39,413 nt of DNA from a virus (Duplodnaviria; Heunggongvirae; Uroviricota; Caudoviricetes): IMG/VR virus record IMGVR_UViG_2703718855_000002, one strand, 5' to 3'. The translations under genes and the position numbers were made by a program. Every line of letters begins with the position of its first letter. Within the stretch, counting starts at the first letter, position 1. A model generated the notes under the pieces. It was given only the letters and a program-made list of their open reading frames with translations. It did not search any database and was not told the DNA's origin. Below are positions 11,338 to 31,149 of the stretch, one piece after another.

Positions 11338-11668
11338 ATCAGCAGCAGAGCGCAAAGCCGCTCAGAGAGCCAGACAAGCTGCATCTGGTGTGCGTAAGCT
11401 GGAGATTGTGCTTGATGCTCAGGAAATTGAAATGCTGGAGCGTAACTGTGCCACGCGTCGCCCCGGGCGTGCGCCTTACGAATTTGGTGAGTATATAGCG
11501 TTACTGATCCGCCAGGATGATGCACGCGTGCACGGGCGTATAAAATCGATCAGCAGAAAACGTTGCGGTAAGTGCGGCGAGAGAGTTCCTGTGAATTCAT
11601 GCCCGTGTAATGGCGACTCGCAATGCTGGGTGACTAAAGGCTGGCATGAAACGAAATTAATAGTGTGA
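11330..11668 (+). CDS. Hypothetical protein with Cys-rich C-terminus; candidate late regulator by position
   Basis: 112 aa; CGKCGERVPVNSCPCNGDSQCW; last gene before the terminator/terminase junction. Confidence 0.4.
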   Translation: MAKSAAERKAAQRARQAASGVRKLEIVLDAQEIEMLERNCATRRPGRAPYEFGEYIALLIRQDDARVHGRIKSISRKRCGKCGERVPVNSCPCNGDSQCWVTKGWHETKLIV

Positions 11669-11676
11669 CATGTCAC
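11665..11676. repeat. 12-bp perfect palindrome GTGACATGTCAC (copy 1)
   Basis: Overlaps stop codon of 11330..11668; 42 bp upstream of terminator hairpin. Confidence 0.6.
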
Positions 11677-11717
11677 GAGTAGATTATGCATGATGAATTT
11701 GATGGGTTTTGAATACT

Positions 11718-11744
11718 GCCGCCAACTATGGCGGCTTTATTTTG
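11718..11744 (+). terminator. Rho-independent terminator immediately upstream of terminase genes
   Basis: GCCGCCA-ACTA-TGGCGGC hairpin followed by TTTATTTTG. Confidence 0.6.
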
Positions 11745-11754
11745 CATGGTACTA

Positions 11755-11769
11755 TTACCACAACGGTAA
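11755..11769. promoter_or_regulatory. Operator-like palindrome TTACCACAACGGTAA
   Basis: Perfect site between terminator and terminase small subunit start. Confidence 0.5.
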
Positions 11770-11772
11770 CTA

Positions 11773-11787
11773 TTACCACGGTGGTTA
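11773..11787. promoter_or_regulatory. Operator-like palindrome, imperfect (TTACCACGGTGGTTA)
   Basis: One mismatch; overlaps terminase small subunit RBS/start. Confidence 0.3.
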
Positions 11788-12383
11788 TGATGCCTGCTGA
11801 ACCTAAAACCTATAAACGCAAATCAACGCAATTTAAGCCACTAACAGCAATGCAGGAGGCTTATTGCCAGTCATACATCAAAACGCCTGAAAACCAGACT
11901 CAGGCAGCGATTAACGCAGGATTCTCCCCAAATACAGCGGCAGTTAAAGCCAGTGTCATGATGCGCGATGAACGCATTCAAAAACGGATTGCCGAGTTGA
12001 TGGAGGAGCGCAACAAACGAATGCGCGTCAGTGCTGATTACGTTCTCATGCGCCTGGTGGAGATCGACCAGATGGACGTGATCGACATCCTCAACGACGA
12101 TGGGAGCCTTAAACCAATCCGTGAGTGGCCGAAAATCTGGCGCACTACGCTTAGTGGCTTTGATCTGTCATCGACCATCATGAACATGAACGAGGATTCG
12201 ATAGAGACAATCCTCAAAAAAATTAAATGGCCTGACAAGGTGAAGAACCTTGAGCTGATTGGTAAGCATGTTGATGTCAACGCGTTCAAAGAACGTCTGG
12301 ATGTTAATGTGAATGTGACAATTGCTGATCGCATAGCAGCAGCCAGGAAGCGACTCAAAGAACGTCAGGATGGTAATCAGTGA
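11787..12383 (+). CDS. Terminase small subunit
   Basis: Start ATG 11787 (MMPAEPKTYKRK), downstream of terminator; the track TTG start at 11709 lies inside the terminator; precedes large subunit with overlapping stop/start. Confidence 0.7.
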   Translation: MMPAEPKTYKRKSTQFKPLTAMQEAYCQSYIKTPENQTQAAINAGFSPNTAAVKASVMMRDERIQKRIAELMEERNKRMRVSADYVLMRLVEIDQMDVIDILNDDGSLKPIREWPKIWRTTLSGFDLSSTIMNMNEDSIETILKKIKWPDKVKNLELIGKHVDVNAFKERLDVNVNVTIADRIAAARKRLKERQDGNQ

Positions 12384-13855
12384 CAGATACAGAGTTATCT
12401 CCTGAAGAGCAGTTGATCGAGGATATTGCAGGGTTCACTCACGATCCGCTTGGCTATGCCCTCTATGCGTTCCCGTGGGGGGAAGAGGGGACTGAACTGG
12501 CACATGCCACCGGCCCACGTCAGTGGCAGGCTGATGCGTTCCGAGAGATACGTGATCACCTGCAGAATCCAGAGACGCGCTATCAGCCGCTTATGCTGGC
12601 ACGCGCTTCTGGTCACGGTATTGGTAAATCCGCATTCATCTCAATGCTGATCAACTGGGGCATGTCCACTTGCGAGGATTGTAAGGTCGTGGTGACCGCC
12701 AACACCGACAACCAGCTACGAACGAAGACCTGGCCGGAAATTATCAAGTGGTCGAACCTTGCTATCACGAAAGAGTGGTTTACCTGTACCGCTACCGCGA
12801 TGTACAGCAATGACCCTGGGCACGACAAGCGGTGGCGAGCTGACGCAATCCCCTGGTCTGAGCACAACACTGAGGCATTCGCCGGACTACACAACGAGCG
12901 AAAACGCATCATCGTGGTATTCGATGAAGCGTCGAACATTGCGGATCTGGTGTGGGAAGTTGCTGAGGGTGCGCTTACGGACGAAGACACTGAGATTATC
13001 TGGGTGGCGTTCGGAAACCCTACACGTAACACCGGACGTTTCCGCGAATGTTTCCGCAAATATAAACACCGCTGGAAAACTGCGCAGATTGACAGCCGAA
13101 CGGTGGAAGGCACTAACAAACAGCAGTTGCAGAAATGGGTTGATGACTACGGGGAAGACAGCGACTTCGTTAAAATCCGTGTGCGCGGCATATTCCCTGA
13201 TGCATCTGAATTGCAGTTTATCCCTACCGGTCTTACTGATGAGGCAATGAAACGGGTGGTAACCGCTGCGCAGGTGGCGCATGCTCCGGTGATAATCGGT
13301 GTTGACCCGGCATATTCAGGCGTTGATGACGCGGTGATATACCTGCGGCAGGGGCTACACAGTAAGGTGCTGTGGACTGGCAACAAGACTACCGACGATC
13401 TGATTATGGCGAAGCGTATCGCTGACTTTGAAGACCAGTATCAGGCTGACGCGGTGTTCATCGACTTCGGTTACGGAACCGGTCTGAAGTCAATCGGTGA
13501 CGGATGGGGTCGTACATGGCAACTTGTTCCGTTCGGTGGCGCGTCTACTGACCCGCAGATGCTCAACAAGCGTGGGGAGATGTTCAATTCATGCAAGACA
13601 TGGCTGAGGCTGGGCGGCATGCTGGATGACCAGGAAACAGCAGACGACCTGTCGGCGGCAGAGTACAAAGTTCGAGTGGATGGTAAAATCGTTATCGAAC
13701 CGAAGGAAGATATCAAGGAGCGGCTTGGGCGTTCGCCGGGTAAAGGCGATGCGCTACTGCTGACGTTTGCGTTCCCTGTGTCTAAGCGTCTGCGAATTCC
13801 CGGGCAGCAGAACCAGCAAGGCAAGGCCATCACAGATTACGATCCCTATGCTTAA
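12380..13855 (+). CDS. Terminase large subunit
   Basis: 491 aa; Walker A-like GHGIGKS; GTG start overlapping small subunit stop. Confidence 0.85.
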   Translation: MTDTELSPEEQLIEDIAGFTHDPLGYALYAFPWGEEGTELAHATGPRQWQADAFREIRDHLQNPETRYQPLMLARASGHGIGKSAFISMLINWGMSTCEDCKVVVTANTDNQLRTKTWPEIIKWSNLAITKEWFTCTATAMYSNDPGHDKRWRADAIPWSEHNTEAFAGLHNERKRIIVVFDEASNIADLVWEVAEGALTDEDTEIIWVAFGNPTRNTGRFRECFRKYKHRWKTAQIDSRTVEGTNKQQLQKWVDDYGEDSDFVKIRVRGIFPDASELQFIPTGLTDEAMKRVVTAAQVAHAPVIIGVDPAYSGVDDAVIYLRQGLHSKVLWTGNKTTDDLIMAKRIADFEDQYQADAVFIDFGYGTGLKSIGDGWGRTWQLVPFGGASTDPQMLNKRGEMFNSCKTWLRLGGMLDDQETADDLSAAEYKVRVDGKIVIEPKEDIKERLGRSPGKGDALLLTFAFPVSKRLRIPGQQNQQGKAITDYDPYA

Positions 13856-13897
13856 TCCGCTGGTTGGGATAATGTCGTTGATATCCTCTGATGAGGA

Positions 13898-13925
13898 TAA
13901 AACAAAGCCAGCTCATCGGCTGGCT
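13898..13925 (-). terminator. Rho-independent terminator after reverse-oriented gene 13946..14317
   Basis: Minus-strand hairpin AGCCAGC-CGATGA-GCTGGCT followed by TTTGTTTTAT. Confidence 0.5.
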
Positions 13926-13929
13926 GTTT

Positions 13930-13941
13930 GTGACATGTCAC
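13930..13941. repeat. 12-bp perfect palindrome GTGACATGTCAC (copy 2)
   Basis: Lies between stop of 13946..14317 (minus) and its terminator hairpin. Confidence 0.6.
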
Positions 13942-13945
13942 GGTG

Positions 13946-14317
13946 TTATTGCTCGCTTAGCTTCTGCTTCAGCAAGTAACCTTCGAGCATCCAGATTTTG
14001 TTTACAGCATTCTGCCGGGCAATCTTCCGACCAATTTCTGCATCAAAGTTTTCCGGGCTTGCACAGGCGCTCTCTCCGGTGACGGTGAAGCCGTTGCGCA
14101 GCACCAGGACGCAGAACGTCAGCAGAGAAAGTGATTCGTGCGGCTGGTAGTTTACCTCTCCGCCAGTATGTTTCGCTTTTATGGCTTTGCCAAAGGCACC
14201 ATCTTCTGCTGTGAAATATGCCTCCTGAGCAATAATGCCTTCGATATGGTCTGGCGTAACGCGCGGTGCCGTTTTGCCTTTCTCAACGATTTCTTTTTCG
14301 ATTTGCTGGTCGTTCAT
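13946..14317 (-). CDS. Hypothetical protein (reverse-oriented accessory gene next to tRNA)
   Basis: 123-aa ORF with SD AAGGTGAG 6 nt upstream of ATG 14317. Confidence 0.5.
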   Translation of the reverse strand: MNDQQIEKEIVEKGKTAPRVTPDHIEGIIAQEAYFTAEDGAFGKAIKAKHTGGEVNYQPHESLSLLTFCVLVLRNGFTVTGESACASPENFDAEIGRKIARQNAVNKIWMLEGYLLKQKLSEQ

Positions 14318-14328
14318 AATCTCACCTT

Positions 14329-14353
14329 AAAAAAAATGCCCGGCGAACCGGGC
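14329..14353 (-). terminator. Rho-independent terminator downstream of tRNA-Arg
   Basis: Minus-strand hairpin GCCCGG-TTCG-CCGGGC followed by T-run. Confidence 0.55.
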
Positions 14354-14516
14354 GAACTGGAAGCAATGAGTTATGCCTTCCGTGGCTGTACTGGTTTACA
14401 GCATGAAGTCATCGCAATGGCGTCCTGCTGTAAAAAGGGCGGTGGTAGTCCTTCAAGGGAAACCATCACCGCCAAGCCCCTGGAACTTCTGGCATCACGG
14501 TCCTTAGGCGTGATTC

Positions 14517-14592
14517 TGGCGTGGCATGCAGGATTCGAACCTGCGACCAACCGCTTAGAAGGCGGTTGCTCTGTCCAACTGAGCTAATGCCA
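14517..14592 (-). tRNA. tRNA-Arg (anticodon UCU)
   Basis: Reverse complement folds as cloverleaf: 7-bp acceptor stem GTGGCAT/ATGCCAC, anticodon loop CUUCUAA, T-arm GGTTCGAATCC, discriminator G, encoded CCA. Confidence 0.85.
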
Positions 14593-14915
14593 CAACGCTG
14601 AGAGCACTTAGCCTGTTAAGGCGCCACATTTTGTCGCGGCTCCATAAATGCTCTCATCGTTGTACCCTCGTCTCTTCCGAGGCGTCACACCGAATCGCCG
14701 GGATGGTGAATCCCCGTGCGCGGAATAAAACCGCTCGACTTGCACATTCCGGCTACCTGGTTCGTTTGCCCGAGCAAGGGAGGGTGCCCCTTAAACGTAT
14801 CCAGACCGCTATCGGCGCATGTGCCATACGCCGTACTGCTCAAAATAAAAGCTCACTCCACCTGTTCAATTTAACGACAAGCCAGTCAGGTTAATAACCG
14901 GAATGAACTCTTTGG

Positions 14916-14930
14916 TTACCTGAAAGGTAA
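14916..14930. promoter_or_regulatory. Operator-like palindrome TTACCTGAAAGGTAA (upstream of structural operon)
   Basis: Perfect TTACC-N5-GGTAA. Confidence 0.5.
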
Positions 14931-14968
14931 TAATTTGTGCGTTAAATGTCAACTATCTACGATAAATA

Positions 14969-14995
14969 AATCATATGTGGTTAAATTGGTAATAA
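14969..14995 (+). promoter_or_regulatory. Candidate late promoter: AATCATATGTGGTT - 7 nt - TAATAA
   Basis: 14-bp near-palindrome then 7-nt spacer then -10-like hexamer; same architecture at 33613 and 36253. Confidence 0.45.
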
Positions 14996-15020
14996 TTTAA
15001 TTGCGTACGGAGTCATTGAT

Positions 15021-15227
15021 ATGTGCATGGGTAGCTCACCGTCAGTGCCTGCAACACCAGAAGTTCAGGCAGCACCACAGGAGCAGGATGCCGCCGTTGT
15101 TGATGCCCGCGACGAAGAAACTCGTCGCCGTCGCGCTGCTGCTGGTCGTAGTTCTACGCTGCTTACCGGTTCTCAGGGCGACACATCAACCGCTAATACC
15201 AGCGGTAAAACGCTGCTTGGTCAGTAA
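15021..15227 (+). CDS. Hypothetical small low-complexity protein
   Basis: 68 aa; translation context CGGAGTCATTGA-N-ATG identical to that of the portal gene. Confidence 0.35.
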   Translation: MCMGSSPSVPATPEVQAAPQEQDAAVVDARDEETRRRRAAAGRSSTLLTGSQGDTSTANTSGKTLLGQ

Positions 15228-15241
15228 CCGGAGTCATTGAA

Positions 15242-16921
15242 ATGGCGGAAACAACTAAAGAGCGATTGAACAAACAGTTCGCACAACTTGAAAGCGAGCG
15301 TCAGTCGTTCGAGCCGCACTGGCGCGAGTTGAGTGATTACATTAACCCGCGTGGTTCCCGCTTTCTGACTTCTGAGGTCAACCGTAACGATCGACGCAAT
15401 ACACGTATTATTGATTCGACCGGGACTATGGCGGCGCGCACTCTCGCCAGCGGCATGATGTCAGGCATCACAAGCCCCGCCCGTCCGTGGTTTCGCCTGG
15501 CTACGCCAGATCCTGAAATGATGGATTATGGCCCTGTTAAGTTGTGGCTTGAGGCGGTGCAGAACCGCATGAACGATATGTTCAATAAGTCGAATCTCTA
15601 TCAGTCGCTGCCGCAGTTATACGGAAGCCTCGGCACATACAGCACTGGTGCAATGGCAGTGCTGGAGGATGACGAGGACATCATTCGCACAATGCCATTC
15701 CCGATAGGCAGTTACTACCTGGCTAACTCACCTCGTGGCAGTGTGGACACCTGTTTTCGCAAGTTCTCTATGACTGTTCGTCAGCTTGTTCAGGAGTTCG
15801 GGCTAAATAACGTCAGCGAATCCGTAAAAAGCATGTGGGAAAGCGGCACCTACGAGAAGTGGATTGAAGTGATGCATTCGGTTTACCCGAACATTGACCG
15901 CGATACATCGAAGCTGGATAGCAAGAACAAGCCATTCAAATCGGTTTATTACGAGGTTGGTGGCGATAACGACAAGTTGTTGCGTGAGTCCGGATTCGAT
16001 GAGTTTCCAATTATGGCTCCGCGCTGGGAAGTTAACGGCGAAGATGTTTATGGATCATCATGCCCGGGTATGCTGGCGCTTGGACCTGTTAAGGCATTGC
16101 AGCTTCTCCAGAAGCGCAAGTCGCAGTTGATTGATAAAGCCACCAATCCGCCGATGGTTGCTCCGACTTCCCTCAAGAATCAGCGCGCCTCCCTTCTTCC
16201 TGGCGACATCACGTATATCGATCAGATTACTGGTCAGGATGGCTTCAGGCCTGCTTATCTGGTTAACCCCAGTACAGCAGATTTGGTGGCAGACATTCAG
16301 GACACTCGTCAAATCATTAACAGCGCCTACTTTGTCGATCTGTTCATGATGTTGCAGAACATCAATACCCGCTCGATGCCTGTTGAAGCGGTGATCGAAA
16401 TGAAAGAAGAAAAACTTCTGATGTTGGGGCCGGTTCTGGAGCGTCTGAACGACGAATGTCTTAATCCTCTCATTGACCGCGCTTTCTCGATGATGGTGCG
16501 TAAAAACATGCTGCCGCCACCGCCTGACGCGATGGAAGGTATGCCCCTGAATGTCGAATACATTTCCGTCATGGCTCAGGCGCAGAAGTCTATCGGCCTG
16601 TCCAGTCTAGCGTCTACGGTCAACTTCATTGGTCAACTTGCGCAAGCGAAACCAGAAGCTCTCGACAAACTCAACGTTGATCAGGCGATCGATGCATTCG
16701 CTGATATGTCCGGAGTGTCTCCAACCGTCATTGTTCCGCAGGAACAGGTTGAGCAGGCTCGCCAGCAACGGGCACAGCAACAACAGCAGCAACAAATGAT
16801 GGCGATGGGGATGGCGGCGGCACAGGGTGCCAAGACGCTAAGCGAAGCTAAAACTTCGGATCCGAGTGTTTTGTCAGCTATGGCGAATGCAGTTAGTGGT
16901 CAGGGTGGGCAATCACAATGA
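15242..16921 (+). CDS. Portal protein (T7 gp8-like head-to-tail connector)
   Basis: 559 aa; resembles T7 gp8 as recalled, including Q-rich C-terminus QQRAQQQQQQQMMAMGMAAAQGA. Confidence 0.8.
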   Translation: MAETTKERLNKQFAQLESERQSFEPHWRELSDYINPRGSRFLTSEVNRNDRRNTRIIDSTGTMAARTLASGMMSGITSPARPWFRLATPDPEMMDYGPVKLWLEAVQNRMNDMFNKSNLYQSLPQLYGSLGTYSTGAMAVLEDDEDIIRTMPFPIGSYYLANSPRGSVDTCFRKFSMTVRQLVQEFGLNNVSESVKSMWESGTYEKWIEVMHSVYPNIDRDTSKLDSKNKPFKSVYYEVGGDNDKLLRESGFDEFPIMAPRWEVNGEDVYGSSCPGMLALGPVKALQLLQKRKSQLIDKATNPPMVAPTSLKNQRASLLPGDITYIDQITGQDGFRPAYLVNPSTADLVADIQDTRQIINSAYFVDLFMMLQNINTRSMPVEAVIEMKEEKLLMLGPVLERLNDECLNPLIDRAFSMMVRKNMLPPPPDAMEGMPLNVEYISVMAQAQKSIGLSSLASTVNFIGQLAQAKPEALDKLNVDQAIDAFADMSGVSPTVIVPQEQVEQARQQRAQQQQQQQMMAMGMAAAQGAKTLSEAKTSDPSVLSAMANAVSGQGGQSQ

Positions 16922-17214
16922 CAGATTACGAAGACGATCAACTGAAAGAAGAAAACGCCCGTAAGCAACGTGACATGGCACAGCGTGAAATTGATGACAT
17001 TCGCTTTGTCATGAGCAGTGAACAGGGGCGTCGCGTTGTCTGGTCTGTGCTGGAGAAAGGCCGGGTGTTTTCCGCTATCTCTCCGATGGATGCTATGGCA
17101 ATGGCATTTAATGAGGGGCAACGCAATCTGGCGCTGGAACTGTTTCAGCGCGTTATGGCGCATTGCCCTGAACAGTATTTGAAGATGGCCAAAGAGGCCA
17201 GTGAACAGGAGTGA
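16918..17214 (+). CDS. Hypothetical head-module protein
   Basis: 98 aa; ATGA overlap with portal stop. Confidence 0.5.
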   Translation: MTDYEDDQLKEENARKQRDMAQREIDDIRFVMSSEQGRRVVWSVLEKGRVFSAISPMDAMAMAFNEGQRNLALELFQRVMAHCPEQYLKMAKEASEQE

Positions 17215-17216
17215 TC

Positions 17217-17912
17217 ATGAATTTATTTGAGCGTTTGCTGTATCGCCGTCTTTGCAATGAGCAACCAGTCGATGGTGGAGCAGCTCCGGCTGCGTCAGAA
17301 CCGTCAGCGCCTGCAGGTGATAACCCTGCTCCAGTTGGTGATCCATCACAACAGGAAGGTGATAAGCCACAACCTGTTGCTGATGGCGATAAACCTGCTG
17401 ATGACAAAAAGCCTGAAAACGATAAGCAGGATGAAAAAAAGGACGGCGATAAACCAGAGGGTGCGCCTGAGAAGTACGAATTTCAGGCTGCCGAAGGCGT
17501 AGAGCTGGATACAGAAGCGTTGAAGGAGTTCGAGCCGGTGGCTCGAGAACTAAACCTGACCAACGAGCAAGCGCAAAAGCTGGTTGATGCTTATCCGAAG
17601 ATTCTGGCAGGTGTTCAGCAGCGCCAGGCAGAAGCCTGGCAGAAAACAACCGAGCAGTGGGCTGCGGATGTAAAAGCTGACAAAGAAATCGGTGGCGACA
17701 AGTTGATTTCTAACCTTAGCTCCGCACAGCGTGCGCTTGACCAGTTCGGGACACCTGAACTCAAAGAATATCTGAACACCACCGGGCTGGGTAATCACCC
17801 TGATCTGGTCAAAACGTTCGTGAAAATCGGAAAGGCGATGTCTGAAGATGGCATGGTCACCGGTGGTAATGAAGGCCAGCGTAGTGCGGCCGAAGTGCTC
17901 TATGGCAAATAA
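17217..17912 (+). CDS. Scaffolding protein
   Basis: Acidic, Pro/Asp/Lys-rich low-complexity N-terminus; between portal and capsid; ATG 17217 after SD AACAGGAG. Confidence 0.6.
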   Translation: MNLFERLLYRRLCNEQPVDGGAAPAASEPSAPAGDNPAPVGDPSQQEGDKPQPVADGDKPADDKKPENDKQDEKKDGDKPEGAPEKYEFQAAEGVELDTEALKEFEPVARELNLTNEQAQKLVDAYPKILAGVQQRQAEAWQKTTEQWAADVKADKEIGGDKLISNLSSAQRALDQFGTPELKEYLNTTGLGNHPDLVKTFVKIGKAMSEDGMVTGGNEGQRSAAEVLYGK

Positions 17913-17926
17913 GAGAGGAAATGACA

Positions 17927-18913
17927 ATGGCTGTTAAAGGCTTAACTGCGCTAACGCTGGCTGACTGGGGTAAGCGCGTCGATCCAAACGGGAAAGTCGA
18001 TAAGATTATCGAGCTTCTCGGTCAAACTAACCCGATCCTTCAGGATATGCCTTTTGTCGAAGGGAACCTTCCTACCGGACACCGAACCACCATTCGTTCT
18101 GGTTTACCTTCAGCTACCTGGCGTTTGCTGAACTATGGTGTACAGCCAAGCAAATCAACCACAGTGCAGGTCACCGATTCCGTTGGCATGCTGGAAACCT
18201 ATGCTGAAGTCGATAAGTCACTGGCTGATTTGAACGGCAATACCGCCGAATTCCGCCTGTCTGAAGACCGCGCATTTATTGAAGCGATGAATCAGCAGAT
18301 GGCGCAGACGCTGTTTTATGGTGATTCCAGCGTTAACCCTCAGCAGTTTATGGGACTGTCCTCCCGCTATTCCAGCCTGTCTGCGGGTAATGCTCAGAAC
18401 ATCATTGATGCTGGTGGCACGGGTACAGATAACACCTCAATCTGGTTAGTGGTGTGGGGCGAAAACACCGTGCATGGCATCTTCCCGAAAGGGCAGAAGG
18501 CTGGCATCCAGATGGAAGATAAAGGCCAGGTGACACTGGAAGATGCTAATGGCGGCAAGTACGAAGGCTATCGCACCCATTACAAATGGGACAACGGACT
18601 TGCTCTGCGTGACTGGCGTTATGTTGTTCGCATTGCAAACATCGATGTCAGCAATCTTTCAGAACCTTCCTCTGCCGCAAATATTGCGAAGTTGATGGTT
18701 AAAGCACTGCATCGCATTCCAAACCGTGGCATGGGCCGCCCGGTGTTCTACATGAACCGCACTGTAGGCCAGGCTCTTGATCTGCAGTCTCTGGAGAAAA
18801 CATCTCTGGCTATCAGCGTAAAAGAGACTGAAGGCGAGTGGTGGACTTCATTCCGTGGTGTACCAATCCGTGAAACTGATGCGCTTCTGGAAACAGAAGC
18901 CCGCGTGGTGTAA
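17927..18913 (+). CDS. Major capsid protein
   Basis: About 330 aa in the canonical position after scaffold; strong SD AAGAGAGGAA. Confidence 0.75.
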   Translation: MAVKGLTALTLADWGKRVDPNGKVDKIIELLGQTNPILQDMPFVEGNLPTGHRTTIRSGLPSATWRLLNYGVQPSKSTTVQVTDSVGMLETYAEVDKSLADLNGNTAEFRLSEDRAFIEAMNQQMAQTLFYGDSSVNPQQFMGLSSRYSSLSAGNAQNIIDAGGTGTDNTSIWLVVWGENTVHGIFPKGQKAGIQMEDKGQVTLEDANGGKYEGYRTHYKWDNGLALRDWRYVVRIANIDVSNLSEPSSAANIAKLMVKALHRIPNRGMGRPVFYMNRTVGQALDLQSLEKTSLAISVKETEGEWWTSFRGVPIRETDALLETEARVV

Positions 18914-18929
18914 CGCCTGTTATTAACCT

Positions 18930-18949: not shown

Positions 18950-18964
18950 TAATGGAGAAAGAAG

Positions 18965-24189: not shown

Positions 24190-26702
24190 TGCCAGTCGTA
24201 CCAACAGTATCCGGACGTCAGGTTGAGAGCCGTGGAGTTCAGTCAGCAGGCTTGCAGACGTTTTCTCAGCCAGGTATTGGTGATGCTTTTGTTCGGGCAG
24301 GGGCAGAGGCAATTGATGTTTTTGGTCAGGCAAAACAGCGTGCCAATATCGCTCTGGCTCAGGAGGCATCTCTTAACCTCAGTCAGATAAGCAGCGATCT
24401 GTTGAATAACCCTGAAACAGGTTTGCTTAACCTGAAAGGGAAAAATGCTATTGGAAAAGGTCAGGAGTATACGCAGCAGTTTGATGCTCAGATCGAACAA
24501 CTGGCTATGTCGCTGCCGGATGAACAGGCTCGTAATGCTTTCATGCAGCAGGCGCAGCAGCAGCGTATTCAGTTCACTACGCAGGCTGGGCGGCACGAGA
24601 TAGGGCAAATAAATGCCTACGAAGAAGGCCAGTTTCAGGCGACGCTGCTGAACAATGGTAAAAATGCCGCAGCATTGTATGGCGACAACGCCGCATACGT
24701 ATTGGCTAATAAGCAAACTTTCCAGCAAATTGAGGATTACGGCATTGCGCATGGCTGGAGCGACGAGCAAATACAGGCCAAGAAAATCGAGTTTAAAGAG
24801 AAGGTTGCTGATGCCGCATTGTCCCAGTGGTCGGCAAACAATGCGACCGCATTCATCCAAAGTAATGGCGAGTTAAGTGATACTGCTGCTGGAGCTCGCC
24901 GTGCTGTAGCAGATAGTGACTCTTCCGAGCGTGCCCGTGGCATACGCAACAATAACCCAGGAAATCTCGAATACAGCAAAACTAATCCGTGGGTAGGCCA
25001 GACCGGTGATGATGGTCGATTTGCGAAATTCGAAACACCTGAACACGGGATTCGTGCATTAGGGCGGAACCTGATGTCGTATCAGAGGCAGGGTATTGAT
25101 ACCGTCAGTGAGATAATTAATCGCTGGGCACCGCCTACTGATAAAAATGACACTATGTCGTATATCAAAGCAGTGTGCGAACAACTTGGCGTTTCTGCTG
25201 ATGAGCCTCTCGATGCATCTAATCCTGATACCCTGAAGGCGCTTTGTGCAGCCATTATCCATCATGAGAACGGTAGCCAGCCATACAGTGATCAGCAGTT
25301 AACTGCTGGTGTCAGTGCAGCACTTGGTTTATCAACAATTCCAACCAACACCAAACGCTATACCGGTAATGCAGCATTCGATGCGGCATCTCCTGAGGCG
25401 CAGGCAAGTTTTATGCGACAGGCGGATCAACTGCGTCGGCAGCAGCAGGCTGAATATAAAACGATGATTGACAGCCAGGTTCGCGATGCGACAGCTGCGT
25501 ATATGCGTGGCGTTGAATTTCCTAACCCACCTGGTGAGGATGATTTTATTGCAGCTTATGGTGTCAGAGAAGGAAACCTGCGATATACCGAGTTTAAGAA
25601 TACGCAGATCGCCGGACAGTATATAGGTTCTTTCCGCAACATGCCGACAAGCAGCATTACAGCATATGTTGAGCAATTACGCCCGGATACTGGTGAGACA
25701 GGGGAGGGGTATGCGGCACGCGCAGCTCTTTATGACAACGTTGTTTCGGCTGCAAATCAGGTGATAAAGCAGCGGCAATCGGATCCTGTGCAGTTCTCTC
25801 TTGCCGCCGGACAGGCTAAGCCTATCGACATGAGCAATAAGGATAACTTTGGACAGAGCGTTGCCTTGCGTGCCGCTCAGGTCAGTGACCTTGCCAAGTC
25901 ATATGGCACTCCACTGACGTTCTTTTCCAAAGACGAGGCCAATCAGATCGGTGTTTTCTTTCGTGATGCGCCCGTTTCCCAACAGGCAGCATATCTCGAT
26001 ACCATCAGGCAAAGCACTGGCGGTGGGCAGGTGTATATGTCAGCACTACAGCAGATCAGTGCCAACGCTCCATCTGCTGCCGTTGCCGGGATACTGATGG
26101 ATAAGCCTGGTGGTATTTTGGCAGAAAAAAACTGGTTTAATCCGGATGTTTCCGTGTCTCCTGAAACCGCTGCGCAGACAATTCTTGCTGGCGCGGCGGC
26201 TCGTAAAGGTACTGATGATTCGAAAGGTATTCCGATGCCTAAAGATGCTGATCTTCGCCTTGAGTTTTCTGACATGGTGAAGGATGCATTTGCTGGTGAT
26301 GCTCAGGGGGCATCAATGGCATACGAGATCGCAAAGGACTATTACGCTGGTGTGATGGCGAAAAAAGGCGTGGTATCAGGCGAAATTGACAATGATATCT
26401 GGAAACAGGCTGTTAACGTAGCTACAGGTGGCGTGCATGACTATAACGGAATGGGGAATGTTCTTTTGCCGTGGGGAATGTCTGCAGAGCAATTCGATAA
26501 GCAGGTTAATCAGGCTTGGAATGAACAAGTTGTCGGCACAGGGATAAAAACACCGCCTGGTCAGTATGGTTTGCAAAGTTACGGCGATAGTCAGTACCTA
26601 GTAAAACTTGGGACTGGATATCTGCTGAAGGATGATGGTTCTCCTGTTGTTCTTGATCTGACACAGAAGCGTCAGAGATTCTCCGGAGATATTCCGCAAT
26701 GA
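24189..26702 (+). CDS. Internal virion / ejection protein (gp15-like)
   Basis: 837 aa; ATG 24189 overlaps previous stop (TAATG); contains an RNNNPGNL...FAKFETPEHG segment that may be an enzymatic domain. Confidence 0.55.
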   Translation: MPVVPTVSGRQVESRGVQSAGLQTFSQPGIGDAFVRAGAEAIDVFGQAKQRANIALAQEASLNLSQISSDLLNNPETGLLNLKGKNAIGKGQEYTQQFDAQIEQLAMSLPDEQARNAFMQQAQQQRIQFTTQAGRHEIGQINAYEEGQFQATLLNNGKNAAALYGDNAAYVLANKQTFQQIEDYGIAHGWSDEQIQAKKIEFKEKVADAALSQWSANNATAFIQSNGELSDTAAGARRAVADSDSSERARGIRNNNPGNLEYSKTNPWVGQTGDDGRFAKFETPEHGIRALGRNLMSYQRQGIDTVSEIINRWAPPTDKNDTMSYIKAVCEQLGVSADEPLDASNPDTLKALCAAIIHHENGSQPYSDQQLTAGVSAALGLSTIPTNTKRYTGNAAFDAASPEAQASFMRQADQLRRQQQAEYKTMIDSQVRDATAAYMRGVEFPNPPGEDDFIAAYGVREGNLRYTEFKNTQIAGQYIGSFRNMPTSSITAYVEQLRPDTGETGEGYAARAALYDNVVSAANQVIKQRQSDPVQFSLAAGQAKPIDMSNKDNFGQSVALRAAQVSDLAKSYGTPLTFFSKDEANQIGVFFRDAPVSQQAAYLDTIRQSTGGGQVYMSALQQISANAPSAAVAGILMDKPGGILAEKNWFNPDVSVSPETAAQTILAGAAARKGTDDSKGIPMPKDADLRLEFSDMVKDAFAGDAQGASMAYEIAKDYYAGVMAKKGVVSGEIDNDIWKQAVNVATGGVHDYNGMGNVLLPWGMSAEQFDKQVNQAWNEQVVGTGIKTPPGQYGLQSYGDSQYLVKLGTGYLLKDDGSPVVLDLTQKRQRFSGDIPQ

Positions 26703-28501
26703 GTTACTTTGGCCTTAATCCAGTAAACCAGAATCAGCAGCTTGACGAAGCAGCATCAAATCCAGCTGGCTTTAACAGCGATGTTGGTTTTTTCGACAAT
26801 GCTGTAGGAGCGGCATTGTCTGGTTTGTACTCCGGGCTGGTGGCAAAGCCAGATCAGTTGCTATGGGCAGGGATGGATAAAATCGTATCCCCGATTGCTC
26901 AGTTTGTTAACGAAAACACCTCGCTCAATGACACTTCAGTTTCATACATTGCTGAGCAGAGAAAACTAGCAGAGCAGCAGGTTAAGCGGCTGACGCCTGA
27001 TGCCGCGACAACCGGAACCGCCGGGCAGGTCCTTTATGGGTTGTTCGATATGGGCGGGCAGGCTGTTGTCGGTACAACGCTCGGTGGTCCGGTCGGAGGT
27101 GCTGCGGCGGTAACTTCGCTACAGGGTTTTTCTGAGTTTGAACGGCTGACAGCACAGGGTGTTGATTTCAGGACGGCGCAGGAAGCGGGATTAGTGCAGG
27201 GTATTACTGCTGGTGCCGGAACACTGATCCCTATGAGCCTCGGGTTACGTGCTGGTGGTGCGCTGGCGGAAGGTGTGGCGGCTCAGCTTGCGCGGACGGG
27301 TGAAAGTTCAGTGCGACGCGCCGCAGCAACAGCAGTACGTGCAACGCCAGATATTGCCTATGCCGCAGGTACAAATATTGCGTTCGGTATGGCACAGCGT
27401 GGGCTTACTGCAAAAACGCTTCGTGATGGTGGCTATAGCGAAATGGCTAACCAGTATGATGTGTTGGATCGACAGGCAATTGCTATTGATGCTGTTCTTG
27501 GGGTGGCGTTTGGTGGTGTCGGCAGATTTATTAACTCTCGCGGCGAGTCTACAAGCGCACCAAATTTTTCACCAGTTGATATTGATGCTGCACTGGCGGC
27601 GAATGCCGCTCATCATGCTGAAATTGATATTGCTCCCGGCGTTCCGATCAACGTGCTTTCGCGTAATTCGCACATTCAGGCTCTGCGAAAAGCCATGTCT
27701 GATGTTAGCCAGGGGAGACCTGTAGACGTTGCCAGCATTGTTGAGTCTGCATCTTTCAGTGAAATTCCTGGGCGCAAGAGTCTGCTGTCTCAGGCAGTTA
27801 ATGAGGCTCTGTCATCTGTAGATGATGGAGTAACTGCGCGCGCTATAGAAAATCGGTTGCTTGAAGAACAGGCTGCGCAGCTTTTGCCGCGTGGCGATAG
27901 ACAGGTTTACCAGTCTGAAATCGCTAATAGCCAACGAATTATCGACAATCTCACTGAACAGCGCGCACAAATTCTTGCAGAAGAGCCAACTGGTAGCGGT
28001 AAAGCTTTGTCTCGTGCTCGATCAGATAAACAGGCCAGAATTCGCGATATTGACCAACGAATCCGGCAGGCACAAGAACGCCTGGAATTTTCCCGTAACG
28101 CGTTGGCGCCGCACGAGCCTGGAGGTCAGTTTTTTGAAGCTCGAGCAGAACTGGCACGGCGACAGCAGGCAGAAAGTGAACTTAATGCTCAGGCTGTTTC
28201 ATTCTATAAAACAGCAGAGGTCAGGACGCCAGACGAAGTAGCTCCTTTTGAGCCCGGTAAGATATTGCAACAGACAGAACAAAAAATGATGGCAGATCCG
28301 GCAGGAGATATTGATCTGCGTATAGCTGAAGACTCGCTGCTTGAATCTCCGGACATGATAATCACCGTGCTGGATGATGATGGTAATCCACAATCGCGCA
28401 GTGCGCGTGAAGTACTGGATGAAGCGAACAGGGAAAGTGAGCAGGCAATACAGGATTCCAGCCTGTTTGATGTTGCTGTGGCGTGTTTCTTGAGAGGTTA
28501 A
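26699..28501 (+). CDS. Internal virion / ejection protein (gp16-like, part 1)
   Basis: 600-aa ORF, Ala/Gly-rich with coiled-coil C-terminus. Confidence 0.5.
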   Translation: MSYFGLNPVNQNQQLDEAASNPAGFNSDVGFFDNAVGAALSGLYSGLVAKPDQLLWAGMDKIVSPIAQFVNENTSLNDTSVSYIAEQRKLAEQQVKRLTPDAATTGTAGQVLYGLFDMGGQAVVGTTLGGPVGGAAAVTSLQGFSEFERLTAQGVDFRTAQEAGLVQGITAGAGTLIPMSLGLRAGGALAEGVAAQLARTGESSVRRAAATAVRATPDIAYAAGTNIAFGMAQRGLTAKTLRDGGYSEMANQYDVLDRQAIAIDAVLGVAFGGVGRFINSRGESTSAPNFSPVDIDAALAANAAHHAEIDIAPGVPINVLSRNSHIQALRKAMSDVSQGRPVDVASIVESASFSEIPGRKSLLSQAVNEALSSVDDGVTARAIENRLLEEQAAQLLPRGDRQVYQSEIANSQRIIDNLTEQRAQILAEEPTGSGKALSRARSDKQARIRDIDQRIRQAQERLEFSRNALAPHEPGGQFFEARAELARRQQAESELNAQAVSFYKTAEVRTPDEVAPFEPGKILQQTEQKMMADPAGDIDLRIAEDSLLESPDMIITVLDDDGNPQSRSAREVLDEANRESEQAIQDSSLFDVAVACFLRG

Positions 28502-28506
28502 ATTAA

Positions 28507-30981
28507 ATGAGACAGGAATGTATACAAGCGGTCCAGCAGGTGGCGCAGCGCGCGTTAACGGCGCGAGAAATACAGAACATTGAAGACCGCATTTATCGAA
28601 ATATGCGCTCCATTGCTCGTGATGACCCGATGTCGTGGCGACAACTTTCCGAATCAGAACGGTTGTATCGTGCAGCACAATTGGCATCTGAAGAATTACA
28701 GCGAGAAGCGGCATTAAAGAAACGTCGTGTGGCCCTCACTATAGCCGCACGTCAGAGATTGGATAAATTTATCAATAGCTATCAAGGGGCTGATGGGAAA
28801 CTTGGCGCTCTTAACCGTACTATTGCTTTTAATGCAGACGGTAAATCGAATTTCCTCTCTGTTGAATCCAGAACAAAAGCCACTCGTGATTATGCATTGA
28901 GTCAATTGCAGGAGGCATTTGAAGCAGTTGATCCTCGCTTTTTTGGCCTGTTTGAAGATGAAGCGGGCGTGCGTGACCTGGTATATGAAATGCGAGGGCA
29001 AAATACTGGCAATGCTAAAGCAAGAAAAGGTGCTAAGGCGTGGAGAGAAGTGACAGATCTACTTCGCCGCCGGTTTAATGATGCTGGTGGGGACATTGGC
29101 TATCTCGAAAACTGGGGGATCCCTCAACATCATTCTATGGAAAAGGTTGGGGCGGTATCAAAGGATAAGTGGGTTAGCGATGTTATAGGTAAGCTGGATC
29201 GCAAATATTATACCCGAGCCGATGGACAACTGATGAACGATGCCGAGTTGTCTGCATTTCTTGGAGAGGCTTATAACACGATCGCTACTGGTGGGCTGAA
29301 TAAGCTTACTGATACCGGAATGCGAATTTCCGGCGCACGTGCTAACCGTGGTAATGCATCACGACAGATACATTTCAAAGATGCAGATTCCTATCTCCAA
29401 TATCAACAACTTTATGGCGATCGCTCTCTATGGGAAATCATGGTCGGTCACCTGGAAGGTATCAGTAAAGATATTGCTCTGGTGGAAACATATGGTCCAA
29501 ACCCCGATCATGTTTTCCGCTCTCTTCTTGATCAGGTGAAGGCAGAAACGGCAACAGCTAACCCGAGTAAAACCGGTAAAGTCGAGCGGCTGGCGAACAA
29601 CACAGAGAATCTGTACAACTTTATTTCCGGAAAGACACAGCCTGTAGCGAATCCGCACATCGCGCGATGGTCTGACAATATCCGCAACTGGCTGGTTGCC
29701 AGCAGACTCGGTTCCGCGTTGCTGTCATCGTTCTCTGATCTTGGGACCATGTATCTGTCTGCGAAGGTGACCAACCTTCCAATGAACCAGTTATTCCGCA
29801 ACCAGCTTGAAGCTATGGACCCAACGAACCGTACAGAACTTGCGCGGGCGCGCCGCGCTGGTCTGGCGATGGAATCTCTACTTGGCAGCGTTAACCGCTG
29901 GGCGATGGATAATATGGGGCCGTCAGTGTCTCGTTGGGCGGCAACGGCGGTAATGCGTGCCAGTGGGCTTACAGCATGGTCAGATGCGCACAAGCGCGCC
30001 TATGGCGTAACCATGATGGGAAGCCTGGGAGAAGTAGTGTCACGGACACCAGACCTTCGTAGCCTCGATGATTCTGATTTTCGCATCCTGAAAAGCAAAG
30101 GGATTACTGACACAGACTGGAGCGTATGGAAGCTGGCGCAACAGGAGGACTGGGGGAACGGCAATAATACGATGCTGACACCGGAAAGCATTATGCGTAT
30201 CCCTGATTCAGCAGTTAAACATCTTGGTGAGCCTGAACGCGTGAAATTTGAGGCAATGCGTAAACTGCTCGGTGCCGTAACTGAAGAAGTTGATATGGCT
30301 GTTATTACACCTGGAGCACGTGAGCAGCTGATAACCGGTTCTGGTATTCAGCGTGGAACATGGAAAGGTGAATTAACGAGAAGTGTTTTCCTGTTTAAAT
30401 CGTTCCCTATCTCGGTTGTTATGCGTCACTGGTCACGCGCTATGGGTATGCCGTCTGCTGGTGGTCGTGCGGCATATATTGCGACGTTTATTGTCAGTAC
30501 GACCATTCTTGGCGCTTTGTCGCAGCAACTTAACGACCTTGCGTCTGGTCGTAATCCTCGAGAGATGACAGGAGAAGATGCCGCAAAATTCTGGCTTGGT
30601 GCTCTACTGAAAGGTGGTGGTCTTGGCCTTTACGGTGACTTTTTATTGTCAGATCACACTAGGTACGGAAGCGGCGCGCTGGCGTCGATGCTTGGCCCGG
30701 TAGCTGGTCTGGTTGATGACGTAGTGAAGATTGCTCAGGGCATACCGTTAAATGCTGTGGAAGGGAAGAGTGAGCAGACTGGTGGTGATCTGGTGAAGCT
30801 GGGGAAAGGTTTGATGCCAGGTGCGAATCTCTGGTACTTAAAGGCGGCTCTCGATCATATGATCTTTAACCAGATGCAGGAGTATTTTTCACCAGGCTAT
30901 TTGCGTAAAATGGAGCAACGTTCGAAGAAAGAGTTTAATCAGACATACTGGTGGCGACCTCAGGATGTCACTCCGCAATAA
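28507..30981 (+). CDS. Internal virion / ejection protein (gp16-like, part 2)
   Basis: 824-aa ORF continuing the module. Confidence 0.5.
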   Translation: MRQECIQAVQQVAQRALTAREIQNIEDRIYRNMRSIARDDPMSWRQLSESERLYRAAQLASEELQREAALKKRRVALTIAARQRLDKFINSYQGADGKLGALNRTIAFNADGKSNFLSVESRTKATRDYALSQLQEAFEAVDPRFFGLFEDEAGVRDLVYEMRGQNTGNAKARKGAKAWREVTDLLRRRFNDAGGDIGYLENWGIPQHHSMEKVGAVSKDKWVSDVIGKLDRKYYTRADGQLMNDAELSAFLGEAYNTIATGGLNKLTDTGMRISGARANRGNASRQIHFKDADSYLQYQQLYGDRSLWEIMVGHLEGISKDIALVETYGPNPDHVFRSLLDQVKAETATANPSKTGKVERLANNTENLYNFISGKTQPVANPHIARWSDNIRNWLVASRLGSALLSSFSDLGTMYLSAKVTNLPMNQLFRNQLEAMDPTNRTELARARRAGLAMESLLGSVNRWAMDNMGPSVSRWAATAVMRASGLTAWSDAHKRAYGVTMMGSLGEVVSRTPDLRSLDDSDFRILKSKGITDTDWSVWKLAQQEDWGNGNNTMLTPESIMRIPDSAVKHLGEPERVKFEAMRKLLGAVTEEVDMAVITPGAREQLITGSGIQRGTWKGELTRSVFLFKSFPISVVMRHWSRAMGMPSAGGRAAYIATFIVSTTILGALSQQLNDLASGRNPREMTGEDAAKFWLGALLKGGGLGLYGDFLLSDHTRYGSGALASMLGPVAGLVDDVVKIAQGIPLNAVEGKSEQTGGDLVKLGKGLMPGANLWYLKAALDHMIFNQMQEYFSPGYLRKMEQRSKKEFNQTYWWRPQDVTPQ

Positions 30982-30990
30982 GGATGAGAA

Positions 30991-31092
30991 ATGATTGCTT
31001 TTATTCTTGTTGTGTTTGCGCTTGTTGCACTTGGCGTTATGAACCGTAATGTATCATTGACGATGGCGAATTTGCTGTTGCAGTTATTTTGA
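30991..31092 (+). CDS. Small hydrophobic peptide (33 aa, single predicted TM)
   Basis: ATG 30991 with SD AAGGATGAG; MIAFILVVFALVALGVMNRNVSLTMANLLLQLF. Confidence 0.25.
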   Translation: MIAFILVVFALVALGVMNRNVSLTMANLLLQLF

Positions 31093-31137
31093 TATTATCT
31101 GGTGTAGCAGGGTACATAGGCTTGTCATAACGTGAGC

Positions 31138-31149
31138 GTGACATGTCAC
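31138..31149. repeat. 12-bp perfect palindrome GTGACATGTCAC (copy 3)
   Basis: Directly abuts terminator hairpin 31150..31167. Confidence 0.6.

What the first reader, a model, noticed from the sequence alone, without database searches (positions are those of the whole stretch)
11665..31149. Perfect 12-bp palindrome GTGACATGTCAC occurs three times, each immediately upstream of an intrinsic terminator
Copies at 11665..11676, 13930..13941 and 31138..31149 are identical 12/12. Chance expectation for one specific 12-mer recurring is negligible. In transcript orientation each lies between a stop codon and a terminator hairpin (11718, 13898-13925 on minus, 31150). A half-copy GTGACATG follows the Rz stop near 38121. 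The element is too short for a stable hairpin, so a protein site (terminator-associated factor, antitermination or processing) or a packaging-related signal are the main options.
Basis: seen in the sequence. Interest (0 to 1): 0.6.

Follow-up and report, generated by a model that had tools for sequence, protein, structure and literature searches.

The report
Phage regulator's matS-like DNA binding sites
The repeated 12-base palindrome is most likely the DNA docking site of a small, uncharacterised phage protein whose gene ends inside one of the copies; this protein-plus-site pair occurs in many unrelated temperate phages, and what it does there is still unknown.

Summary
GTGACATGTCAC occurs exactly three times (11665, 13930, 31138) where chance predicts none, and a degenerate copy sits at the Rz stop (38122).

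The window is an epsilon15/phiV10-like (Uetakevirus) prophage. The same sites lie at the same places in Escherichia, Salmonella, Enterobacter and Klebsiella relatives, although the flanking sequence differs.

The element generalises to Y-GTGAC-NN-GTCAC-R. Across 1.68 Mb of related loci, 166 hits have a 2-base spacer, one has a 1-base spacer, and none has 0, 3, 4 or 5.

Copy 1 overlaps the TGA stop of a 112-aa gene (11330..11668, PHROG 536, no Pfam family). A confident model gives it a ribbon-helix-helix fold plus a four-cysteine C-terminus.

The site-at-stop arrangement recurs in 22 of 27 bacterial loci, in all 46 N15-like loci whose match reaches the end of the gene, and in P2-like and Pseudomonas elements. 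In one Pseudomonas clade every copy has changed to GTGAC-NN-GTAAC. That co-variation indicates DNA-level recognition by this protein, and argues against an RNA signal and against binding by host MatP.

The site is E. coli matS minus one central base, but homology of the protein to MatP is not demonstrable.

The association with terminators is real in this phage group and absent in the N15 group. The function remains inferred; the leading idea is a DNA-bound barrier at the ends of transcription units.

The parts
11665..11676 (.). Palindrome copy 1 (the primary site). It overlaps the TGA stop of the regulator gene and lies 41 nt upstream of the terminator that precedes terS.
   Evidence: The same arrangement is seen in relatives.
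13930..13941 (.). Palindrome copy 2, between terL (+) and the convergent minus-strand gene 13946..14317. It lies 4 nt upstream of the minus-strand terminator hairpin.
   Evidence: The 3-4 nt spacing is conserved in 12 or more diverged genomes even though the hairpin sequences differ.
31138..31149 (.). Palindrome copy 3, at the end of the structural (late) operon and directly abutting the terminator hairpin. Mosaic breakpoints between related phages fall at about 31137 and about 31195.
38122..38133 (.). Degenerate fourth copy, GTGACATGGCAT. Its TGA is the Rz stop codon. SPN1S has GTGACATGTCAT at the same place.
11330..11668 (+). Gene for the 112-aa candidate binding protein. It has a basic N-terminal helix, a ribbon-helix-helix core and a C-terminal four-cysteine motif. 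It belongs to PHROG 536 and is a homologue of N15 gp46 and phiKO2 gp45.
11718..11743 (+). Intrinsic terminator between the early-right operon and terS.
   Evidence: It is conserved in SPN1S, L010, L012, L017 and L025.
13898..13925 (-). Intrinsic terminator (hairpin 13925-13906 plus T tract) that ends leftward transcription before terL.
31150..31175 (+). Intrinsic terminator that ends the structural operon.
   Evidence: It is annotated as a terminator in phiV10.

Best explanation
The palindrome is a double-stranded DNA operator with consensus Y-GTGAC-NN-GTCAC-R. It is bound by a dimer of the ribbon-helix-helix and zinc-ribbon protein encoded by 11330..11668, whose stop codon lies inside copy 1.

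Gene and primary site travel together as a cassette at the end of the early (replication) operon. The secondary sites sit in the few non-coding gaps at the ends of transcription units.

My preferred mechanism is that the bound dimer acts as a barrier to elongating RNA polymerase and so marks the ends of transcription units. Under this idea it would have three effects:
- It limits read-through from the early operon into terS-terL, which also feeds back on the regulator's own mRNA.
- It shields terL and the structural operon from convergent transcription coming from the moron and antirepressor genes.
- In N15-type phages, it shuts down repA.

What is shown: the site, its strict spacing, its conservation, its physical link to the gene, its co-variation with the protein clade, and the protein fold. 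What is inferred: that this protein binds the site, and all effects on transcription.
For: 1. Non-random and conserved. There are three exact copies against 0.00 expected. The same syntenic positions are occupied in phiV10, TL-2011b, SPN1S, Tyrion, BUCT554 and BUCT711, with unrelated flanks.

2. Strict geometry. There are 56 hits with a 2-base spacer and none with 1, 3 or 4 in 764 kb. There are 110 hits with a 2-base spacer against one with a 1-base spacer and none with 0, 3, 4 or 5 in 913 kb. At the site beside the gene, natural variants change the two central bases in every locus except phiV10, which has GTGACATGTTAC. Information content is about 1 bit at the position on each side of the 12-mer and close to 0 beyond that.

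3. Linkage to the gene. The site overlaps or lies within 9 nt of the stop in 22 of 27 genome loci. It overlaps the stop in all 46 N15-like loci whose match reaches the end of the gene, in a P2-like Yersinia phage and in Pseudomonas elements. In 94 of 180 distinct contexts the site's TGA ends an open frame of at least 60 codons, against 9.8% for control GTGA occurrences.

4. Co-variation. In the Pseudomonas P0422 clade all copies read GTGAC-NN-GTAAC. This variant has 48 hits with a 2-base spacer, including one at the gene's own start codon and one at its stop.

5. DNA level, not RNA. The asymmetric variant occurs in both orientations relative to transcription and cannot form a hairpin. The RNA fold of the palindrome is insignificant.

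7. Selection on DNA inside a gene. At the N15 repA-internal site, 17 consecutive columns are invariant across 19 distinct contexts, while the flanking codons vary at third positions. This fits a functional site inside a transcribed region.

8. Terminator proximity with an orientation bias: 31 sites lie upstream of a terminator and 7 downstream, and all 7 are also counted as upstream of a hairpin, against 4.3% in either direction at random positions.
Against: - There is no binding experiment. The protein-site pairing rests only on linkage and co-variation.
- Many of the counted loci share ancestry, so the numbers overstate the independent events. There are roughly 7 independent contexts in which the site lies upstream of a terminator.
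- A strong roadblock fits poorly with the conserved variant site inside the large-terminase gene of the Pseudomonas clade.
- A strong roadblock also fits poorly with sites placed upstream rather than downstream of the terminator, where polymerase would stall inside the last codons of the preceding gene.
- Vibrio phage K303 has its sites 226 nt or more from the gene.
- No single position relative to promoters or terminators holds across all phage families.
Confidence: 0.5

Rival explanations
1. The same protein and site act as a read-through (antitermination) switch. The DNA-bound protein transfers to RNA polymerase as it passes and makes it ignore the hairpin just downstream. This would be a functional analogue of lambdoid Q loaded from a DNA site, and it would turn on terS-terL from the early operon.
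For: - The gene occupies the Q-like position, last in the early operon and immediately before a terminator and the packaging genes.
- No Q or N homologue was found among the regulator candidates scanned.
- The site lies 0-41 nt upstream of terminators in seven independent contexts.
- The protein carries a cysteine-rich zinc motif, as lambda Q does (own knowledge).
Against: - N15 has its own Q (gene 40) in addition to the homologue gp46, and P2-like phages use Ogr.
- Many sites have no terminator nearby: the N15 46/47 junction, repA, and the start codon of the Pseudomonas gene.
- At copy 2, read-through would send polymerase antisense into terL.
- The late operons appear to have their own promoters with a different shared motif.
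- There is no Pfam Q-family match.
Confidence: 0.15
2. The system is architectural, in the manner of MatP-matS or ParB-parS. Single-dimer sites scattered over the phage genome are bridged, or recruit a partner through the zinc-ribbon domain, in order to fold, anchor or protect replicating phage or phage-plasmid DNA. Their position at gene ends would only reflect the need for non-coding space.
For: - The half-sites are identical to matS, and the E. coli consensus matS is GTGACATTGTCAC (PMC8669397).
- The sites are isolated, dispersed and sized for one dimer rather than clustered at promoters.
- Many carriers are phage-plasmids: N15, Serratia and Pseudomonas contigs of 38-47 kb.
Against: - There is no coiled-coil tetramerisation domain.
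- Integrating phages with no partition need carry the system too.
- The precise 0-4 nt spacing to hairpins is not explained.
Confidence: 0.15
3. The palindrome works in the transcript, as a processing, stability or translation signal next to stop codons and terminators.
For: Sites lie in 3' untranslated regions between stop codons and hairpins, and some lie just upstream of ribosome-binding sites.
Against: - The hairpin energy is -1.2 kcal/mol, with z = 0.
- Variation shows no compensatory pattern, and only the centre varies.
- The asymmetric Pseudomonas variant abolishes pairing and is used in both orientations relative to transcription.
- There is no Rfam family at any copy.
Confidence: 0.05
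4. The palindrome is a packaging-related signal recognised by terminase, because copies 1 and 2 bracket terS-terL.
For: Copies 1 and 2 flank the terminase operon, and Vibrio phage K303 has a site 31 nt upstream of terS.
Against: - Copies 3 and 4 are far from the terminase genes.
- N15 (a cos phage) has none near cos or terS, and instead has sites in repA and near the antirepressor locus.
- The element tracks the regulator gene across phages with unrelated terminases: P1-like, lambda-like and P2-like.
Confidence: 0.05
5. The sites are mimics of matS bound by the host protein MatP.
For: The sequence is matS with one central base removed, and most carriers infect hosts that have MatP.
Against: - Across 1.68 Mb of related loci, not one hit has the matS spacing of three bases.
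- The same arrangement occurs in Pseudomonas elements, and Pseudomonas lacks MatP (own knowledge).
- The site varies with the phage protein clade.
Confidence: 0.03

Closest known systems
MatP-matS (organiser of the Ter macrodomain in Enterobacterales and Vibrionales)
   Different: The spacer is 2 bases, not 3, without exception. No sequence homology is demonstrable (no Pfam MatP domains; hhalign probability 2%). The four-helix bundle and the coiled coil are absent and a four-cysteine domain is present instead. The system is phage-borne, and it also occurs in Pseudomonas.
Ribbon-helix-helix repressor and operator pairs of phages and plasmids (P22 Arc and Mnt, CopG, omega, ParG, ParR, TraM)
   Same: The fold is the same, the binder is a dimer recognising short symmetric DNA, and the gene is tightly linked to its own site.
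   Different: Those operators overlap promoters and usually need two or more adjacent dimers. Here single sites lie at stop codons, before terminators, or inside genes, and no consistent promoter relationship was found.
Roadblock repression from sites inside transcribed regions (PurR in purB, LacI at O2, CodY and CcpA in Bacillus)
   Same: A sequence-specific protein bound within or at the end of a transcription unit, away from the promoter. This is the mechanism I favour here.
   Different: This is a functional analogy drawn from my own knowledge. Nothing in the present data measures polymerase stalling.
Lambdoid Q with its DNA binding element and the tR' terminator
   Same: A small zinc-containing phage protein encoded just upstream of a terminator that precedes late genes, with a DNA site next to that terminator.
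   Different: There is no Q-family homology. The site is not embedded in a recognisable promoter. N15 carries a true Q in addition to the homologue.
Dispersed SopB centromere repeats of N15
   Same: Single inverted repeats scattered through a phage(-plasmid) genome and bound by a phage-encoded protein (own knowledge).
   Different: The sequence and the protein family differ, and there is no ParA partner in Uetakeviruses.

Membership tests
matS / MatP system | 13-bp site GTGAC-RNY-GTCAC (3-base spacer) | tested here: not met
   Across 1.68 Mb of related loci, no hit has a 3-base spacer, against 166 with a 2-base spacer. The matS consensus is taken from PMC8669397.
matS / MatP system | The binder belongs to the MatP family (Pfam PF06303 and PF17414) | tested here: not met
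matS / MatP system | Dependence on a host that encodes MatP | tested here: not met
   The gene-plus-site cassette is present in Pseudomonas elements. That Pseudomonas lacks MatP is my own knowledge and was not tested here.
Ribbon-helix-helix regulator with cognate operator | The protein adopts the ribbon-helix-helix fold | tested here: met
Ribbon-helix-helix regulator with cognate operator | A short symmetric DNA site genetically linked to the gene and co-varying with it | tested here: met
Ribbon-helix-helix regulator with cognate operator | The operator overlaps the promoter it controls | tested here: not met
   No consistent promoter was found at the sites. Where promoter-like hexamers exist, they lie at variable distances from the site (my own reading of the sequences).
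Ribbon-helix-helix regulator with cognate operator | Direct, sequence-specific binding of the protein to the site | not testable with these tools
   This needs gel shift, footprinting or ChIP.
Q-type antitermination module | The protein belongs to a Q family (Pfam PF03589, PF06530 or PF06323) | tested here: not met
   No Pfam match.
Q-type antitermination module | The DNA site is embedded in the late promoter, with a terminator downstream | tested here: inconclusive
   A terminator lies 41 nt downstream of copy 1. The only promoter match there is weak: GTGACA, 18 nt, CATGAT, 9 of 12 positions.
Intrinsic terminator (as part of the hairpin) | A stable G+C-rich stem followed by a U tract | tested here: not met
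   The palindrome folds at -1.2 kcal/mol with z = 0, and it stays separate from the terminator stem in context folds.
Repetitive extragenic or mobile element (REP, MITE) | Conserved sequence extending beyond the core, or terminal repeats | tested here: not met
   Information content drops to about 0 beyond one base on each side across 109 distinct contexts.

The most novel reading that the evidence does not exclude
This is a phage-borne counterpart of the MatP-matS system. A ribbon-helix-helix protein recognises matS-like sites with one base fewer in the spacer, dispersed over phage and phage-plasmid genomes. Its role would be to organise, bridge or insulate the replicating genome, or to interfere with host chromosome-handling machinery such as MukBEF, rather than to act as a conventional promoter-bound regulator.
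Probability: 0.12. Interest if true: 0.8.

Novelty: new variant of a known kind. Interest (0 to 1): 0.55.

Why it matters
It assigns a probable DNA target and a testable role to a protein family annotated only as 'transcriptional regulator' (PHROG 536, which includes N15 gp46 and phiKO2 gp45).

The family is spread across epsilon15-like, N15-like and P2-like phages and across Vibrio, Shewanella, Serratia and Pseudomonas phages and phage-plasmids.

The operators sit at stop codons, in front of terminators and inside a replication gene, not at promoters. If the protein acts there, it is a form of phage gene control (or genome organisation) that has not been described for this family.

The near-identity to matS raises a concrete question: how does a one-base change in spacer separate a host system from a phage system? 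The site is also a simple sequence marker for these cassettes and for module boundaries in mosaic phage genomes.

Tried and rejected
- Late-promoter element for an activator. Rejected: there are no copies upstream of the portal, tailspike or lysis operons, and those carry a different shared motif.
- CRP-, LexA- or SlmA-type host sites. Rejected from memory of their consensus sequences, because the spacing and bases do not fit.
- Host MatP. Rejected on spacer length and on the Pseudomonas occurrence.
- RNA hairpin. Rejected.
- Larger repeat or mobile element. Rejected.
- Recombination linker explained by shared ancestry alone. Rejected: N15, Vibrio and Pseudomonas phages share the half-sites but no other DNA similarity, and the central bases differ between them.
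- Literature. No paper in the held library contains any version of the sequence except as unrelated primers. The epsilon15 genome paper could not be fetched. The 'gp46' mentioned in the telomere-phage paper is the cB repressor, not this protein.
- A natural loss-of-gene control. L009 has a truncated gene, but its downstream module is different, so it says nothing about co-loss of the sites.
- The first structure model, from a shallow alignment, was poor (pLDDT 58).
- The MatP homologue search returned only near-identical E. coli sequences and added nothing.
Full report
**The observation**

GTGACATGTCAC occurs exactly three times in the window, at 11665, 13930 and 31138. No occurrence was seen in any of 100 dinucleotide-preserving shuffles. 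With up to two mismatches there are two more matches:
- GTGACATGGCAC at 16970, inside a coding region.
- GTGACATGGCAT at 38122.

- + strand, 11718-11735.
- - strand, 13925-13906.
- + strand, 31150-31167.

Each copy relates to genes and hairpins as follows:
- Copy 1 overlaps the TGA stop (11666-11668) of ORF 11330..11668 and lies 41 nt before its hairpin.
- Copy 2 lies 4 nt after the stop of the minus-strand gene 13946..14317 and 4 nt before that gene's hairpin.
- Copy 3 abuts its hairpin.
- The TGA of the degenerate copy at 38122 is the Rz stop codon.

In this window the small membrane-protein ORF ahead of copy 3 carries a one-base deletion and stops at 31092. In phiV10 and SPN1S it runs to 7 nt before the palindrome.

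**What the window is**

The window is a prophage of the epsilon15/phiV10 group (genus Uetakevirus), about 97% identical to phiV10, ZX5 and HEMP4 over the terminase region.

The deposited phiV10 record is linearised inside copy 1. Its last base is the A of the regulator's TGA stop.

**Conservation**

The palindrome sits at the same three syntenic places in phiV10, TL-2011b, SPN1S, Tyrion, BUCT554 and BUCT711. These phages infect Escherichia, Salmonella, Enterobacter and Klebsiella. The flanking intergenic sequence, and even the neighbouring genes, differ between them.

SPN1S also has GTGACATGTCAT at its Rz stop.

Breakpoints of similarity between related phages fall at about 31137, about 31195 and about 13948. 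The site-plus-terminator units therefore sit on module boundaries.

**The element is GTGAC-NN-GTCAC**

I fetched 27 bacterial loci that encode a relative of the 112-aa protein, from Citrobacter to Yersinia, with identity down to 40%.
- In 22 of them the palindrome overlaps the stop codon or lies within 9 nt of it.
- At that site, the natural variants seen in these loci differ only in the two central bases: AT, CT, AG, AC, GT, GC. The one exception among all genomes examined is phiV10, which has GTGACATGTTAC.
- In the 764 kb held at that point there were 56 hits with a 2-base spacer and none with 1, 3 or 4.

The protein is a homologue of N15 gp46 and phiKO2 gp45.
- N15 has three copies. One overlaps the gp46 stop, one lies inside repA, and one lies beside the antirepressor locus.
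- All 46 N15-like viral contigs whose match runs to the end of the gene have the site at the gp46 stop. In the other three, where the match ends at residue 101, the site begins 21 nt after the match end.
- Almost all of these contigs also have the repA copy.
- In 913 kb there are 110 hits with a 2-base spacer, one with a 1-base spacer, and none with 0, 3, 4 or 5.

Other phage families show the same element:
- A P2-like Yersinia phage has GTGACGCGTCAC on the stop codon of its homologue, which follows gene A.
- Vibrio phage K303 has three copies, two of them 31 nt upstream of start codons, one of which is terS.

Anchoring 109 distinct contexts on the site gives about 1 bit of information at the position on each side (Y before, R after) and nothing beyond that. 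The element is therefore a discrete 14-bp site. It is not part of a larger repeat or structured RNA.

**Co-variation and the DNA-versus-RNA question**

The protein family extends to Serratia, Shewanella, Enterovibrio and Pseudomonas. In one Pseudomonas clade (18 loci) the sequence at the stop codon is GTGAC-NN-GTAAC.
- The same variant recurs two to six times per locus: at the gene's own start codon, at its stop, and at about +3.5 and +5.6 kb.
- There are 48 such hits with a 2-base spacer.
- All copies have changed together with the protein clade. That is the signature of a cognate protein-site pair.
- The variant is asymmetric, cannot pair with itself, and appears in both orientations relative to the direction of transcription. 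Recognition must therefore be of duplex DNA.

The RNA fold of the symmetric form is insignificant (-1.2 kcal/mol, z = 0), and Rfam finds nothing at any copy.

A second Pseudomonas-type locus (L108) carries four canonical GTGAC-NN-GTCAC sites, including one on the stop codon.

**The protein**

The protein has no Pfam family and belongs to PHROG 536, annotated 'transcriptional regulator'.

An alignment of 61 diverse homologues shows:
- a basic N-terminal helix in which R8 and R13 are nearly invariant;
- a strand-helix-helix core;
- a C-terminal cysteine motif in which the cysteines at 79 and 82 are invariant and the one at 99 is nearly so.

With that alignment AlphaFold2 gives pLDDT 90.2.

**Relation to matS**

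Membership nevertheless fails on three counts:
- The spacing is never 3 bases.
- No MatP Pfam domains are detected, and hhalign gives only 0.4-2.4% probability.
- The cassette occurs in Pseudomonas, which to my knowledge has no MatP.

I therefore treat MatP-matS as the closest analogue in architecture. I do not treat it as a family assignment, and I rate binding by host MatP as unlikely.

**Terminators**

Among the 65 distinct contexts outside the N15 group, 31 have the site within 45 nt upstream of a terminator-like hairpin, in that terminator's own orientation. Seven have it downstream, and all seven are also counted as upstream of a hairpin. Random positions score 4.3% either way.

In Uetakeviruses the spacing is 3-4 nt at copy 2 and 0-11 nt at copy 3, even though the hairpin sequences have diverged.

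Counted as independent events, this is about seven contexts. In the N15 group only 2 of 62 sites are near terminators.

Sites are strongly tied to gene ends. In 94 of 180 distinct contexts the site's own TGA closes an open frame of at least 60 codons (control 9.8%), and in another 21 a long ORF stops within 12 nt.

**A site inside a gene under DNA-level selection**

At the repA-internal site of N15-like phages, 17 consecutive alignment columns are invariant across 19 distinct contexts. The flanking codons show the usual third-position variation. A further invariant stretch containing a GTCAC half-site lies 27 nt away.

Binding inside a transcribed gene therefore appears to be selected. This observation is the main reason I lean towards an effect on elongating polymerase rather than on initiation.

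**Mechanism**

- Shown: a discrete, strictly spaced, conserved DNA site; its physical coupling to one gene; its co-variation with that gene's clade; and the ribbon-helix-helix fold of the product.
- Inferred: that the product binds the site (I put this at about 0.8).
- Further inferred: that the bound dimer is a barrier marking the ends of transcription units (about 0.35 on its own).

In this window that barrier would do three things:
- Limit read-through from the early-right operon into terS-terL, with feedback on the regulator's own message.
- Keep leftward transcription of gene 13946..14317 out of terL.
- Keep the leftward antirepressor operon out of the structural operon. That operon carries a LexA box, isrK and C4 RNAs and a Bro-N gene, and its hairpin has no T tract in that direction.

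Weak points of the barrier idea:
- The site lies on the upstream side of each terminator.
- A conserved variant site lies inside a terminase gene in the Pseudomonas clade.

The rival explanations are a Q-like read-through switch, an architectural or bridging role, an RNA signal, a packaging signal, and host MatP. They are scored separately.

**Verdict**

It is best filed as a new variant of a known kind: a ribbon-helix-helix regulator with a cognate palindromic operator, here placed at gene ends and terminators instead of promoters, with a target one base shorter than matS. No description of it was found in the searchable literature.

Noticed in passing
window 14972-14994 and 33616-33638; L003 3259-3281: An exact shared motif, CATATGTGGTT-N5-GGTAATA, lies upstream of the portal operon and of the tailspike gene. 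Chance expectation is 0.02. It is conserved upstream of the portal operon in SPN1S. It is a candidate late-promoter or activator site and is unrelated to the palindrome.
   Followed up: partly
window 14917-14936 and 33572-33591: A second inverted repeat, TTACC-N5-GGTAA (GTTACCTGAAAGGTAAT and ATTACCCGAAAGGTAAT), lies just upstream of those two motifs. Related TATTACC repeats (GGTACTATTACCAC and GGTAACTATTACCAC) lie at 11748-11779, directly before the terS start.
   Followed up: no
window 33516-33531: A perfect LexA-box-like sequence, CTGTATATTTATACAG, lies at the head of the leftward operon that starts with ORF 33238..33513. This suggests SOS control of the antirepressor module.
   Followed up: no
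window 33079-33155 (-) and 32971-33054 (-): Rfam matches above the gathering score to the isrK Hfq-binding sRNA and the C4 antisense RNA. They lie upstream of the Bro-N/Ant-like gene 32212..32937. Together these form a P1 immI-like antirepressor module.
   Followed up: no
window 14517-14593 (-): A tRNA-Arg (anticodon TCT) gene lies between the terminase and portal operons.
   Followed up: no
window 30991-31092: The small two-helix membrane-protein gene at the end of the structural operon is frameshifted by a one-base deletion (CCGTAATG against CCGTAAATG in phiV10). It encodes 33 aa instead of 46 aa.
   Followed up: yes
L007, L008, L014, L015, L005 (BUCT554), L006 (BUCT711), L088: In several relatives a UmuD-like gene is inserted between the regulator gene and terS. 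It has its own promoter (TTGACT, 15 nt, TATACT) overlapping a LexA box. The palindrome then lies 6 nt upstream of the -35 hexamer.
   Followed up: partly
window 16970-16981: GTGACATGGCAC, with one mismatch that breaks a half-site, lies inside a coding region. It is conserved in phiV10 and TL-2011b. This is probably coding conservation and not a functional site.
   Followed up: no
L016 232, L018 3890, L020 4164: An exact palindrome lies inside a conserved 107-aa minus-strand gene, where it encodes the residues C-D-M-S, in three non-Uetakevirus prophages that carry the regulator. It is unclear whether this is a selected site or a coding coincidence.
   Followed up: partly
L089-L101, about 40-70 nt downstream of the regulator gene: In the Pseudomonas clade a sequence resembling a sigma-54 promoter (TTGGCAC-N5-GTACC) follows the site.
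   Followed up: no
window 11709..12383: The TTG start used for terS in the phiV10 annotation would place the terminator 11718-11743 inside the gene. The ATG at 11787/11790, preceded by GGTGG and used in TL-2011b, is the more likely start.
   Followed up: partly
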